Positions 1-3,000 of a DNA stretch of 3,281 nt are shown here, piece after piece. A program made the position numbers. Position 1 is the first letter of the stretch, and each line of letters starts with the position of its first letter. This DNA is from Escherichia coli (GTDB lineage: Bacteria > Pseudomonadota > Gammaproteobacteria > Enterobacterales > Enterobacteriaceae), in assembly GCF_003334255.1 (NCBI RefSeq), contig NZ_QOWU01000122.1. The stretch is one strand, 5' to 3'.

Positions 1-3000
1 CCGTACTGAGATAGCAATCAGCTGGATCAACGGTCTGAAAAAAATCCGTTTCCCCGAGAAGAGCGGCAAGATGCAGGATCACGGTGTTATTGCCGTTGAT
101 ACCGCAGTGAAGCTGTGATTTTTCCTTTCCCCATGCCGGGTTATCGCCCGGCTTTTTCAGGAGTCATTAATTATGGCAAAGACTATCCTTGCTCCGTCAC
201 TGAGTGAGCGGGTTTATTCAGGTACGCATGGTAATGAGTCGGTGGCAGAAGGTGTGTTTACAGTGAATGCTGCCGAACAGGAAACCGTTATTAATCTTCT
301 CTCACTGCCGACTGGCGTTCGCATTAATGGGATCCAACTGATTTCAAAAGGTGGTCTTGGTGGTACGGCGACCGTCAGCGTTAAATCTGGCAAGCATGAG
401 CTCATTGGTGACAGTGGTGCAGTAACTGCCAGCTTTGCTAAATATGTGCCAGTGGAGCCGTACACCACACAGAGTGATGGAGAGCTGGTTACGGTCACCA
501 TTAAGACAGCTGCTGCGACCGGTACCCTGAATGTTCTGCTGCGTTATACCGTAGTGGGATACTGATATAAACCTTCCGGCCCGCGTCATGCGGGCTTTTT
601 TATCCGGGGAATTATATGAGCGAGAAAATTGCCGTTGTCTATATCGGCCCCAAACCCGTGAAAAAGGATACCCTTACCGGCAGTCGTACACTGTTTCCGC
701 GTCTTGAGCCGGTGCATGTTGACAGCGCGCTTGCCTGGCAGTTGCTGGCCTTTCCGGATGTCTGGGTTCGTCATGAAGAGCTTGATGGTGTGCTCAAAAA
801 GCAACAACAGGATGAGCAGTTGCGGCAGGCACAGCAGGCGCAGGAAAGAGAACAGGTGGCTCTTGCAGAAGCGGAGAACAGTTTTGTGGTTAGCGTTGGT
901 GGTCAGGATGTGGATTTGAGCAAACTCACGTCCGCACGGCTGGCAACGTTGTGTGAGGCAGAAGAGCTGGATATTCACAAAGACCCGAAAGAAACGGCTG
1001 ATGCATTTCGTGTCCGTGTGCGTGAGGCATTTCGCCGTCGTGTTGCGGAGACTGAACAGCATGGCGGAACTGACTGATTTTTTGCCTTATGTCCGTCGTC
1101 ATATCAGCGGTCCGCTGAGCATTATGATGACGGATGCATTATCCATGTCGGCAGTGGCATTCTGCCGTCAGTCCCTGTTGTGCCGCCGTGAAGCCACGCT
1201 GTCACCGTCAGCCGGAGAGGACTGTGTGCTGCCATATGACGCGGAGAATGAAGAGTGCGTACATATTATTCGTATCCTCGCTGACGGGCGTGAGCTTTTT
1301 GCCGGTCATGATGTGGAAATCCGCCCGGGGCGGGTAATGCATTTTGCCTGTTCGCCCGGAGAGGTGAGTGTGCTTTATGCCGTTGCTCCGAAAGCAGGGA
1401 GCCGTCAGGTGCAGGATGAACTGCGGGCATGGTCTGAAGAAGTGGCTGCAGGGGCGCTTGAACGGTTGTTCATGCAGACCGGGGTTTCATGGTCAGACCC
1501 GTCGCGCGCACAGTATTTCTCTGTGCTGTTTTCTGAGGGTATCCGTCGGGCATATCGCGACACACTGGCGACAAGTCCGTACTCCTCATACCGCAATCCT
1601 GTCCGCAGACAAAGGTTTTACTGATGACGACGATTACTGAAATCATCGGACGAGTGAACACGCAACTGGTTGACCCGATGATGGTGCGCTGGCCTCTGGC
1701 TGAGCTGTGTGATTATTACAATGATGCTGTGCGGGCGGTGATTCTGGCAAGGCCGGATGCAGGCGCAAGTCTGGAGACGCTGAATTGTGTTCCTGGTGCA
1801 CGTCAGACTTTGCCTGATGGCGCAATACAGCTTCTTGACGTGATATGCCTCAGCGATGGCAGTGCTGTAAAACCGCAATCCCGTGAGGTGCTTGATGCAC
1901 AGTATCCCGACTGGCACATGCTGAGGGGGAAACCGGAATGCTTTATCAGCAGTGACCTTGCCCCGCGCGTGTTCTGGCTGTTTCCGGCACCGGAGGAGGC
2001 TGTGAGTGTTGATGCTGTGGTCAGCCGCATTCCGGAGGCGGTGTATGTTCTGACGCAGGATGATGACACGCCTGTACCGCTGGAAGAGGCTTATGTTAAC
2101 CCGCTGGTTGACTGGATGTTGTTTCGTGCATTCAGCAAGGATGCAGCCGGTGGTGCAGAGTCAGGACTGGCAGCACAACATTATCAGAGTTTTGTTGAGC
2201 AGCTCGGGATTAAACAGGGTGCAGACAGTGCATTGTCTGCCCGCAAGAAGGTGTTTAACGGAGGTGGAATGTGAGTGTTGTTGTTTCGGGGACGCTGAAA
2301 TCTCCTGATGGTGAGGCAATATCAGGCGCAAATATTACCCTGACGGCGCTGACAGTTTCACCGGATGCGCTCAGCGGCACCAGTGCGTCAGCAGTGACCC
2401 GTGAAGGTGGATATTACGGAATGACGCTGGAGCCGGGGGAGTATGCGGTTTCTGTGACGGTGAAAGGGAAGACTGCTGTCTACGGACGTGTGCGTATTGA
2501 GGGGACTGAAAGTACGGTGACGCTCAATATGCTGTTACGCCGCAGTCTTGTTGAGGTGAGCATACCCGGAGAACTGCTGACAGATTTCCGGCAGATACAG
2601 AACAATGTGGCGGATGACCTTGCCACGATTCGTCGTCTGAACGAAGACACGGCGGTGAAAAATAATCAGGCTTCACAGTCGAAGGAAAGCGCTGCTGCCA
2701 GTGCGAAGACTGCATCAGAAAGCGCGAAGGCTGCGACCAGCAAAGCGACGGAGTCTGCACAAAAAGCCAGTGAGGCTGCAGAGGCGGCGACCCGGGCAGG
2801 TGAGTCTGAAAAGGCAGCGGCAGCTGACGCTAAAGAGGCCAGACGACATGCTGAAACCGCCAGAGTGGCTCAGGAGGCCGCCGGAGACGTTCTTAAACGT
2901 GCTGAGGCTGCTACGGTTAGTGCTGAAGAAGCCAGACGTATGGCTGAGAATGCACGAGGACCTAAAGGCGATACAGGGCCGAAAGGTGATGCTGGTCCTC

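What the first reader, a model, noticed from the sequence alone, without database searches (positions are those of the whole stretch)
119..615. 130-aa gene insulated by two intrinsic terminators inside a co-oriented structural operon
A hairpin plus T-run precedes the gene (135-157) and a stronger one follows it (579-601). The gene has a canonical AGGAG ribosome-binding site but I see no convincing sigma-70 promoter in the 55-nt upstream spacer. This suggests graded transcriptional readthrough, with more transcript for the upstream gene and less for the 130-aa gene and those beyond it. A moron-like insertion is an alternative, although no promoter is evident.
Basis: partly seen in the sequence, partly recalled or inferred. 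Interest (0 to 1): 0.45.

Follow-up and report, generated by a model that had tools for sequence, protein, structure and literature searches.

The report
Capsid cement gene flanked by terminator hairpins
The 130-aa gene is the core capsid "cement" protein of a Shiga-toxin-phage-like prophage, and the two terminator-like hairpins around it are conserved RNA punctuation marks of a kind already annotated in lambda, HK97 and P22, so the finding is real but ordinary.

Summary
GC-rich hairpins with U-tracts lie at 135-157 and 578-601. AGGAG precedes the ATG at 173, and no sigma-70 promoter is detected.

The window is the late operon of a 933W/phi24B-like (Sepvirinae) lambdoid phage. The 130-aa ORF is the homologue (83% identity) of phi24B gp67. 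Cryo-EM shows gp67 is the trimeric capsid cementing protein, present 1:1 with the major capsid protein in a T=9 shell.

The gene sits directly after the capsid gene in all 92 related loci with enough downstream DNA, all 186 matching Sepvirinae phage records and 420 E. coli genomes. It is a core gene, not a moron.

Both hairpins are conserved by position. Their sequences differ between relatives and carry compensatory stem changes. The intergenic spacers are better conserved than the flanking coding DNA. The same layout exists in lambda (D, E), HK97 and P22, all in Q-antiterminated late operons.

The most likely role is to raise the mRNA dose of the abundant shell genes relative to the 12-copy adaptor and tail genes, by leaky termination and/or 3'-end protection. 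A simple stepwise attenuation fits poorly with Q antitermination, the 1:1 stoichiometry, and a conserved terminator upstream after the portal gene.

Novelty is low.

The parts
1..118 (+). 3' end of the N4-family major capsid protein gene (stop TGA 116-118)
   Evidence: PHROG 334 major head protein, E=1.4e-14. Annotated as N4-gp56 family major capsid protein in E. coli genomes. Homologue of phi24B gp69.
119..134 (+). G-poor, pyrimidine-rich leader between the capsid-gene stop codon and hairpin T1
   Evidence: Read from the sequence. Across 45 unique relatives this leader is 4% G and 75% C+T, against 28% G in the background. Its function is unknown.
135..157 (+). T1: intrinsic-terminator-like hairpin (stem-loop 135-152) plus U-tract (153-157)
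   Evidence: Hairpin -12.7 kcal/mol. A hairpin of score >=9 is present in 40 of 45 unique downstream regions, 37 of them with a T-run. Compensatory changes are seen in the GCAGGC-UUCG family.
159..163 (+). Shine-Dalgarno AGGAG of the cement-protein gene
   Evidence: Read from the sequence. GGAG is conserved before the start codon in relatives.
173..565 (+). 130-aa capsid cementing protein gene (homologue of phi24B gp67 and Sp5 ORF63/ECs1224)
   Evidence: PHROG 486 virion structural protein, E=6e-57. 83% identity to phi24B vb_24B_31, which is gp67. Profile hit to the Pam1 cement protein 7eel_H, E=2.7e-5. AF2 pLDDT 92, N-terminal arm plus 8-strand beta-sandwich. The four best Foldseek PDB hits are phage cement proteins. 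Cryo-EM of phi24B assigns the role.
566..577 (+). G-free leader between the cement-gene stop codon and hairpin T2
   Evidence: Read from the sequence. Family-wide composition is 7% G and 68% C+T.
578..601 (+). T2: intrinsic-terminator-like hairpin (stem-loop 578-596) plus U-tract (596-601)
   Evidence: Hairpin -13.2 kcal/mol. A hairpin is present in 47 of 48 unique downstream regions, 31 with >=5 T in 7 nt. The consensus has 8 bp, and 6 pairs show double-sided compensatory changes.
606..610 (+). Shine-Dalgarno GGGGA of the next gene
   Evidence: Read from the sequence. Conserved across Sepvirinae.
616..1077 (+). 153-aa gene (Sp5 ORF64 homologue; deletion strongly reduces infectivity)
   Evidence: PHROG 482. 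Sp5 ORF64 is 153 aa. Deletion phenotype.
1061..1624 (+). 187-aa gene, homologue of the phi24B gp64 portal-proximal adaptor ring protein (12 copies)
   Evidence: PHROG 437. Gene order in HM208303. phi24B structure.
1624..2274 (+). 216-aa gene, homologue of the phi24B gp62 second adaptor ring protein (SU10_adaptor, PF24175)
   Evidence: PHROG 399. PF24175 is assigned to orthologues. phi24B structure.
2271..3281 (+). 5' part of the lateral tail fibre gene with collagen-like Gly-X-Y repeats (phi24B gp61 homologue)
   Evidence: PHROG 366 tail fiber, E=3.5e-122. phi24B gp61.

Best explanation
The window lies in the Q-antiterminated late operon of a 933W/phi24B-like short-tailed lambdoid phage. The 130-aa ORF encodes the capsid cementing protein. 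This is a trimeric beta-sandwich protein that clamps the three-capsomer junctions of the T=9 head. It is needed in about 540 copies, equimolar with the major capsid protein.

The two hairpin-plus-U-tract elements are conserved intercistronic RNA elements. They follow each abundant shell gene, as in lambda (after D and after E), HK97 (after portal, major head and major tail genes) and P22 (after coat).

Inferred mechanism: most Q-modified polymerases read through. The hairpins then form in the transcript. Through some residual termination, and as barriers to 3'-to-5' exonucleases after downstream cleavage, they make the capsid and cement cistrons more abundant or longer-lived than the adaptor and tail cistrons downstream. 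T2 is the functional boundary between roughly 540-copy and 12-copy proteins.

Shown: the gene's identity, and the conservation and structure of the hairpins. Inferred: their effect on RNA.
For: Gene identity:
- 83% identity to phi24B vb_24B_31. By feature order this is gp67.
- Cryo-EM shows gp67 is the cementing protein, with 9 copies per asymmetric unit alongside 9 MCP copies and a His19 anchor. His19 is present in the window protein.
- Independent support comes from the profile hit to the Pam1 cement protein, the AF2 model and the Foldseek top four hits, all phage cement proteins.

Core gene:
- It lies directly after the capsid gene in all 92 loci with enough downstream DNA, in 186/186 phage records and in 420/421 E. 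coli genomes.

Hairpins are functional elements:
- They are present in 40/45 (IG1) and 47/48 (IG2) unique relatives.
- Their sequences are unrelated between subfamilies, and stems carry compensatory changes.
- They persist in a Vibrio phage whose cement protein is only 32% identical.
- The intergenic DNA is 94-100% identical between Sepvirinae phages whose flanking coding DNA is 76-97% identical.

Same layout elsewhere:
- Lambda. HK97 'putative terminator' features. P22 stem_loop annotated as 'similar in location to stem-loops in phage HK97 and phage lambda'.

Operon context and precedent:
- A Q gene lies upstream in the 99.4%-identical phage.
- Leaky terminators after capsid genes balance expression in T7-like and N4-like phages.
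Against: - No transcript data were available, so the effect on RNA is inferred.
- If the hairpins were only exonuclease barriers, the U-tract would not need to be conserved. It is conserved in most relatives. This argues that real termination matters at least sometimes.
- A few relatives keep the hairpin but lack a U-tract: Paramixta, L082 and L088.
- Three relatives have no hairpin between the capsid and cement genes, with gaps of only 13-21 nt. T1 is therefore dispensable in some lineages.
- A conserved terminator after the low-copy portal gene is not explained by a dosage model unless a promoter or a stabilising leader follows it. None was detected.
- Thermodynamic z-scores are unremarkable for T2.
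Confidence: 0.6

Rival explanations
1. Pure transcriptional attenuation. T1 and T2 are partial intrinsic terminators. Each removes a fraction of polymerases, giving capsid > cement > downstream transcript levels.
For: Both elements have canonical GC stems and U-tracts. The U-tract is conserved in most relatives. T7-like and N4-like phages use leaky terminators after the capsid gene.
Against: The operon lies downstream of a Q antiterminator. By established knowledge of lambda Q, Q-modified polymerase resists intrinsic terminators over the whole late operon. Cement and capsid proteins are needed 1:1, so a drop at T1 is not what stoichiometry requires. A comparable conserved terminator follows the 12-copy portal gene, ahead of the most abundant genes.
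Confidence: 0.22
2. Insulators for the prophage state. The terminators stop polymerases that have not been modified by Q, such as read-through from moron or cargo promoters or spurious initiation. Structural proteins are then not made in the lysogen.
For: Non-Q polymerase would be stopped by such terminators. Late regions of these phages carry constitutively expressed morons such as lom and bor.
Against: This does not explain why the elements sit precisely after the portal, capsid and cement genes across diverse relatives and in lambda, HK97 and P22. No promoter is evident just upstream.
Confidence: 0.08
3. Translational device. The G-poor CU-rich leader pairs with the downstream Shine-Dalgarno sequence around the hairpin. 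Initiation on the next cistron then depends on a ribosome terminating at the upstream stop codon, coupling capsid and cement synthesis 1:1.
For: MFE structures pair the leader with the SD in the window and in many relatives. The leaders are strikingly G-depleted, at 4-7% G. The mean probability that the SD is paired to upstream sequence is 0.76, against 0.60 with random leaders.
Against: Composition-preserving shuffles of the leader pair the SD just as well (0.78 against 0.76). No specific anti-SD arrangement is therefore selected. The abundant cement protein would be expected to have an open, strong SD.
Confidence: 0.05
4. Moron: an independently acquired accessory gene cassette with its own terminator, inserted into the structural operon.
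For: The gene is flanked by terminator-like hairpins. Its Sp5 orthologue ORF63 is not among the nine essential genes.
Against: It has no promoter. It is present at this position in every relative, down to 25-32% identity. It is a stoichiometric virion shell component.
Confidence: 0.01

Closest known systems
phi24B gp67 capsid cementing protein (bioRxiv 10.64898/2026.04.10.717836); structural relatives are the cement proteins of Pam1 gp6 (7EEL), Ralstonia phage GP4 (8H89) and Helicobacter phages KHP30/KHP40 (7DN2/7DOU)
   Same: 83% amino-acid identity to gp67. Same gene position after the N4-type capsid gene. His19 anchor residue present. The predicted N-terminal arm plus 8-strand beta-sandwich matches the described '4+4 Ig-like' fold. 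The best structural matches are the same cement proteins.
   Different: The central third of the gene (window 233-430) is the most diverged segment, at 76% nucleotide identity to 933W. The exposed surface of this allele probably differs. No structure or virion proteomics exists for this exact phage.
Terminator-like stem-loops after abundant-protein genes in Q-dependent late operons of lambdoid phages: lambda after D and after E; HK97 'putative terminators' after portal, major head and major tail genes; P22 stem_loop after coat gene 5
   Same: Hairpin energies are similar, at -11 to -13 kcal/mol. All have a U-rich tail and sit immediately after the capsid or decoration genes, and after the portal gene. 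Lambda also has a G-poor leader. All lie in co-oriented late operons.
   Different: The capsid and tail modules are unrelated (podovirus T=9 N4-type capsid versus HK97/lambda/P22 types). Gene order is reversed relative to lambda (capsid then cement, versus D then E). As far as I could find, the function of these stem-loops has not been tested experimentally in any of these phages.
T7 T-phi and related leaky terminators immediately downstream of the major capsid gene (T7, LUZ100; stepwise read-through in the N4-like phage LUZ7)
   Same: A terminator directly after the capsid gene is used to balance structural gene dosage.
   Different: Those phages use phage RNA polymerases or unmodified host polymerase. 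Here the polymerase is expected to carry the Q antiterminator, so termination efficiency may be low.
Intercistronic mRNA-stabilising hairpins in bacterial operons (for example Rhodobacter puf, E. coli pap/fim major-subunit genes, REP after malE). Cited from general knowledge, not tested here.
   Same: A hairpin 3' of the cistron for the most abundant subunit gives segmental differences in mRNA stability within a polycistronic transcript.
   Different: Those hairpins generally lack a conserved U-tract. No decay data exist for this locus.

Membership tests
Capsid cementing protein, phi24B gp67 / Pam1 gp6 type | Sequence homology to a structurally assigned cement protein | tested here: met
   83% identity over 100% of its length to phi24B vb_24B_31, which is gp67 by feature order. 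A family profile hits the Pam1 cement protein 7eel_H at E=2.7e-5.
Capsid cementing protein, phi24B gp67 / Pam1 gp6 type | N-terminal arm followed by an 8-strand (4+4) beta-sandwich | tested here: met
   AF2 model with pLDDT 92: strand 4-6, short helix, then 8 strands. The four best Foldseek PDB matches are the KHP40, GP4, Pam1 and KHP30 cement proteins.
Capsid cementing protein, phi24B gp67 / Pam1 gp6 type | His19 anchor pointing at the three-capsomer junction | tested here: met
   The window protein reads ...Y15 S G T H19 G N.... G17, G20 and N21 are invariant or nearly invariant in 47 homologues. The anchoring role of His19 is described.
Capsid cementing protein, phi24B gp67 / Pam1 gp6 type | Forms trimers bound to the capsid exterior, equimolar with the capsid protein | not testable with these tools
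   Shown by cryo-EM for phi24B only.
Capsid cementing protein, phi24B gp67 / Pam1 gp6 type | Gene adjacent to the major capsid gene in the head module | tested here: met
   It lies directly downstream of the capsid gene in all 92 loci with sufficient DNA.
Intrinsic (Rho-independent) terminator | GC-rich stem-loop immediately followed by a U-tract, on the transcribed strand, in intergenic DNA | tested here: met
   T1 has 7 bp and 5 U. T2 has 8 bp and 6 U.
Intrinsic (Rho-independent) terminator | Generates transcript 3' ends / releases RNA polymerase | not testable with these tools
   Term-seq of strain Sakai exists (GSE143631).
Intrinsic (Rho-independent) terminator | Structure maintained by selection | tested here: met
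   6 of 8 pairs (IG2) and 3 of 8 pairs (IG1 subfamily) show double-sided compensatory changes. Positional conservation holds across 45-48 unique sequences.
Moron | Own promoter upstream of the gene | tested here: not met
   No sigma-70-like site in 119-172. No conserved -35/-10 is evident across the IG1 variants.
Moron | Present in some, absent in other, otherwise syntenic relatives | tested here: not met
   Present in 186/186 phage records, in 92/92 loci and in 420/421 E. coli genomes with the locus.
Moron | Product serves the lysogen rather than the virion | tested here: not met
   The product is a stoichiometric shell protein, in the PHROG 'head and packaging' category.
Late-operon punctuation stem-loops of lambdoid phages | Located in a co-oriented late operon downstream of a Q antiterminator | tested here: met
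   Antitermination protein Q, holin, lysozyme, Rz and terminase are all co-oriented upstream in the 99.4%-identical phage PhiR12_3.
Late-operon punctuation stem-loops of lambdoid phages | Hairpin with a U-rich tail directly after genes for abundant virion proteins | tested here: met
   After the capsid and cement genes here. The same is seen in lambda, P22 and HK97.

The most novel reading that the evidence does not exclude
The module 'G-poor CU-rich leader, then GC hairpin (often with a UUCG tetraloop), then U-tract, then SD' may be a dedicated, widely conserved device of Q-antiterminated late operons. In this reading it acts after transcription. It could define stable 3' ends for the capsid and cement mRNAs, or physically juxtapose the upstream stop codon and the downstream SD to couple their translation 1:1. 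It would not act as a terminator. As far as I could find, this role has never been tested in lambda, HK97, P22 or Stx phages.
Probability: 0.12. Interest if true: 0.45.

Novelty: new member of a known kind. Interest (0 to 1): 0.2.

Why it matters
It assigns a function to a gene that is still annotated as 'hypothetical protein' in hundreds of E. coli and STEC genomes. That function is the capsid cement protein.

It corrects a likely mis-annotated start of the neighbouring gene in 933W and phi24B.

It shows that the hairpin punctuation of lambdoid late operons extends, with compensatory evolution, to the medically important Stx-phage lineage. The practical value is modest. These spacers are candidate handles for tuning or disabling virion production, and they offer a clean system for asking what intrinsic terminators do inside an antiterminated operon.

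Tried and rejected
- Pfam on the 130-aa protein: no hit even at E<=10.
- Single-sequence PDB search: only a chance hit. The family profile was needed.
- Rfam at permissive thresholds: only sub-threshold terminator-like hits to Trp_leader and isrK at 538-603. The elements belong to no curated RNA family.
- RNAalifold on a mixed alignment of the two IG1 hairpin subfamilies returned no structure, because the registers differ. Splitting by subfamily worked.
- The search for related loci with the cement-protein alignment failed because it has no sufficiently conserved stretch. The capsid protein alignment was used as the anchor instead.
- A specific anti-SD pairing by the CU-rich leader was tested and rejected as arrangement-specific. 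Shuffled leaders pair equally well.
- Literature searches found no RNA-seq or term-seq evidence for 3' ends in the Stx-phage head region. One search timed out. The others gave nothing on this locus.
- The P22 genome papers are not held. A search for HK97/lambda stem-loop discussion found nothing.
- A sigma-70 promoter was looked for in the spacer after the portal terminator, to rescue a monotonic attenuation model. None was detected.
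Full report
**What the window is.** The 3,281-base window is 99.4% identical to Escherichia phage PhiR12_3. It is 86-92% identical to 933W-like Stx phages of the subfamily Sepvirinae. All genes are on the + strand:
- the last 38 codons of an N4-family major capsid protein (MCP), with stop codon at 116-118;
- the 130-aa ORF (173-565);
- a 153-aa ORF (616-1077);
- a 187-aa ORF (1061-1624);
- a 216-aa ORF (1624-2274);
- a collagen-repeat tail fibre gene (from 2271).

In the near-identical phage, the antiterminator gene Q, the lysis genes, terminase, portal and a 335-aa head gene all lie upstream in the same orientation. 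The window is therefore the middle of a lambdoid, Q-dependent late operon.

**Checking the observation.** Both hairpins exist where stated.
- T1: stem-loop 135-152 (7 bp, 6 of them G-C, loop TATC), then TTTTT at 153-157.
- T2: stem-loop 578-596 (6 G-C pairs plus wobbles), then six T at 596-601.

They rank first and second among the + strand terminator-like sites. The window has 9 such sites against 3.5 +/- 2.3 in shuffles. The hairpin-only energies are nearly equal, at -12.7 and -13.2 kcal/mol. 'Stronger' for T2 rests mainly on one extra U. Folding z-scores are modest: -2.9 for T1 and -0.9 for T2 in 41-nt windows. Stability alone would not be convincing. AGGAG (159-163) precedes ATG 173. No sigma-70-like promoter was found in the 54-nt spacer.

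**What the gene is.** Pfam gave nothing. PHROGs places the protein in 'virion structural protein' family 486. An exhaustive search found about 50 homologues, nearly all 120-140 aa and 25-98% identical.
- A profile of 47 of them hits the cement protein of cyanophage Pam1 (7eel_H, E = 2.7e-5).
- An AlphaFold2 model (pLDDT 92) shows an N-terminal arm followed by an eight-strand beta-sandwich.
- Its four best PDB matches are the capsid cement proteins of Helicobacter phages KHP40 and KHP30, Ralstonia phage GP4 and Pam1.
- An April 2026 preprint reports the cryo-EM structure of phi24B. It has a T=9 capsid made of MCP gp69 and the 'cementing capsid protein' gp67. Trimers of gp67 sit where three capsomers meet, anchored by His19. 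There are nine MCP and nine gp67 per asymmetric unit.
- The order of features in the phi24B GenBank record shows that gp67 is vb_24B_31. This is the 83%-identical homologue of the window ORF. The window protein has His19 in the conserved G-T-H-G-N motif.
- By the same mapping, the 187-aa and 216-aa ORFs are the two dodecameric adaptor rings (gp64, gp62). The last gene is the lateral fibre gp61. The 216-aa orthologues carry PF24175 SU10_adaptor.
- The Sp5 orthologue, ORF63/ECs1224 (129 aa), was deleted in frame by Mondal et al. It is not among the nine essential genes. One of their primers matches window 161-181. This is typical of a cement or decoration protein under laboratory conditions.

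**Core gene or moron.** The gene is present at this exact position in all of the following:
- 186 matching phage records;
- 420 of 421 complete E. coli genomes that carry the locus;
- all 92 loci, out of 93 with both models, that have enough downstream DNA. These include viral contigs with 73-100% MCP identity, prophages of Salmonella and Paramixta, metagenomic contigs, and Vibrio phage douglas 12A4, whose cement protein is only 32% identical.

**Are the hairpins meaningful?** Yes, on comparative grounds.
- Among 45 unique sequences downstream of the MCP stop codon, 40 have a strong hairpin, and 37 of those have a T-run.
- Among 48 unique sequences downstream of the cement gene, 47 have a hairpin, 31 with at least 5 T in 7 nt.
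- The hairpins fall into sequence-unrelated families: GCCGGG...CCCGGC, GCAGGC-UUCG-GCCUGC, CCCGC...GCGGG, CCCAC-UUCG-GUGGG and others.
- Double-sided compensatory changes occur at 6 of 8 consensus pairs for T2 and 3 of 8 for one T1 subfamily.
- Within Sepvirinae the two spacers are 94-100% identical where the flanking coding DNA is 76-97% identical.
- Three distant relatives have only a 13-21-nt gap and no hairpin between MCP and the cement gene, but keep the hairpin after the cement gene. A few keep the T2 hairpin without a U-tract. T2 is therefore the more constant element.
- A third conserved terminator follows the portal gene. It too has different sequences in different lineages.

**Comparison with known systems.** The layout is not new.
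- In lambda, the decoration gene D is followed by a G-free leader, a hairpin and seven T before E. The capsid gene E is followed by a UUCG-loop hairpin and a T-rich tail before FI.
- The HK97 record annotates 'putative terminators' after the portal, the major head protein, on both sides of the major tail gene, and after a moron.
- The P22 record annotates a stem-loop after coat gene 5 as 'similar in location to stem-loops in phage HK97 and phage lambda'.
- T7-like and N4-like phages use leaky terminators after the capsid gene to balance expression.

**Mechanism.** The data establish selection on a hairpin, usually with a U-tract, immediately 3' of the cistrons for the shell proteins. They do not show what it does to RNA.
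- Q-modified polymerase is, by established knowledge, resistant to intrinsic terminators throughout the late operon. The Q gene is present here.
- MCP and cement protein are needed 1:1, so a drop at T1 is not required by stoichiometry.
- A comparable terminator follows the 12-copy portal gene, upstream of the most abundant genes, and no promoter was detected after it.

I therefore favour a mixed model. Most polymerases read through. The hairpins then fold in the transcript. Through residual termination and as 3'-exonuclease barriers, they raise the steady-state level of the MCP and cement cistrons relative to the adaptor and tail genes downstream. Those downstream genes are joined by overlapping stop/start codons rather than by spacers. 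The conserved U-tract argues that true termination contributes. The U-tract-less variants argue that the hairpin alone retains value. Confidence in this composite is about 0.6. The split between termination and stabilisation is unresolved.

**A side hypothesis tested.** The leaders between each stop codon and its hairpin are strikingly G-poor, at 4-7% G against 28% in the background. MFE structures pair them with the next gene's Shine-Dalgarno sequence. Composition-preserving shuffles pair the SD equally well (0.78 against 0.76). No specific anti-SD arrangement is supported. The compositional bias itself remains unexplained.

**Verdict.** The gene is the core capsid cement protein, not an insulated accessory gene. 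The architecture is a further instance of a pattern already annotated in classical lambdoid phages. Interest is low to moderate, and novelty is 'new member of a known kind'.

Noticed in passing
window 585-616; L003 (933W) 3413-3436; L094 (phi24B) 3913: 933W, AU5Stx1 and phi24B annotate the gene after T2 as 162 aa, starting at the ATG inside the T2 hairpin loop. The T-run is T5 in those phages and T6 in the window. This shifts the frame with no consequence downstream. The conserved GGGGA-N5-ATG at 606-618 is the likely true start, giving 153 aa as in the Sp5 re-annotation.
   Followed up: yes
L002 (PhiR12_3) 6733-6873, upstream of the window: A third positionally conserved terminator follows the portal gene. 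After it comes about 110 nt of conserved non-coding leader, containing an inverted repeat (GCTTAT...ATAAGC), before the 335-aa head gene. No sigma-70 promoter was detected, and the function is unknown.
   Followed up: partly
window 119-134 and 566-577; all related loci: The leaders between each stop codon and its hairpin are strongly G-depleted (4-7% G) and pyrimidine-rich. The lambda D-E spacer has the same feature. It is not explained by a specific anti-SD pairing.
   Followed up: partly
window 233-430: The central part of the cement gene is the most diverged segment of the window relative to 933W: 76% nucleotide identity, against 94-96% for the flanking spacers. This is consistent with a variable exposed surface or with allele exchange between conserved spacers.
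   Followed up: partly
L090 2459-4165 (IMGVR_UViG_2663763097_000003): The capsid and cement-protein homologues lie in a single stop-free reading frame. This could be a natural fusion, a read-through arrangement or a sequencing error.
   Followed up: no
L099 (phage GER2) 810-2757, equivalent to window ~611: An insertion element of about 1.95 kb, carrying two transposase genes on the opposite strand, sits between T2 and the start of the 153-aa gene. It carries a GGGAA target duplication that copies the Shine-Dalgarno region.
   Followed up: partly
window 1061-1077, 1621-1626, 2271-2274: The low-copy genes downstream of T2 are joined by overlaps: a 17-nt overlap, then TGATG, then GTGTGA. This suggests translational coupling. 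In contrast, the abundant shell genes are separated by spacers of about 50 nt containing hairpins.
   Followed up: no
window 1061-1624: Mondal et al. 2016 suggested that the Sp5 orthologue (ORF65, 187 aa) is the scaffolding protein. The phi24B cryo-EM structure places its homologue gp64 as a dodecameric adaptor ring on the portal. The upstream 335-aa gene (ORF61) is a better scaffold candidate.
   Followed up: partly
window 2960-3281: Long collagen-like Gly-X-Y repeat tract in the tail fibre gene. On the minus strand it gives spurious long ORFs and a terminator-like hit at 3237-3220.
   Followed up: no
E. coli RefSeq genomes: PGAP still labels the cement-protein gene and its neighbour as 'hypothetical protein' in all listed E. 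coli genomes. The locus occurs in 421 of 5,426 complete genomes, with up to three copies per genome.
   Followed up: no
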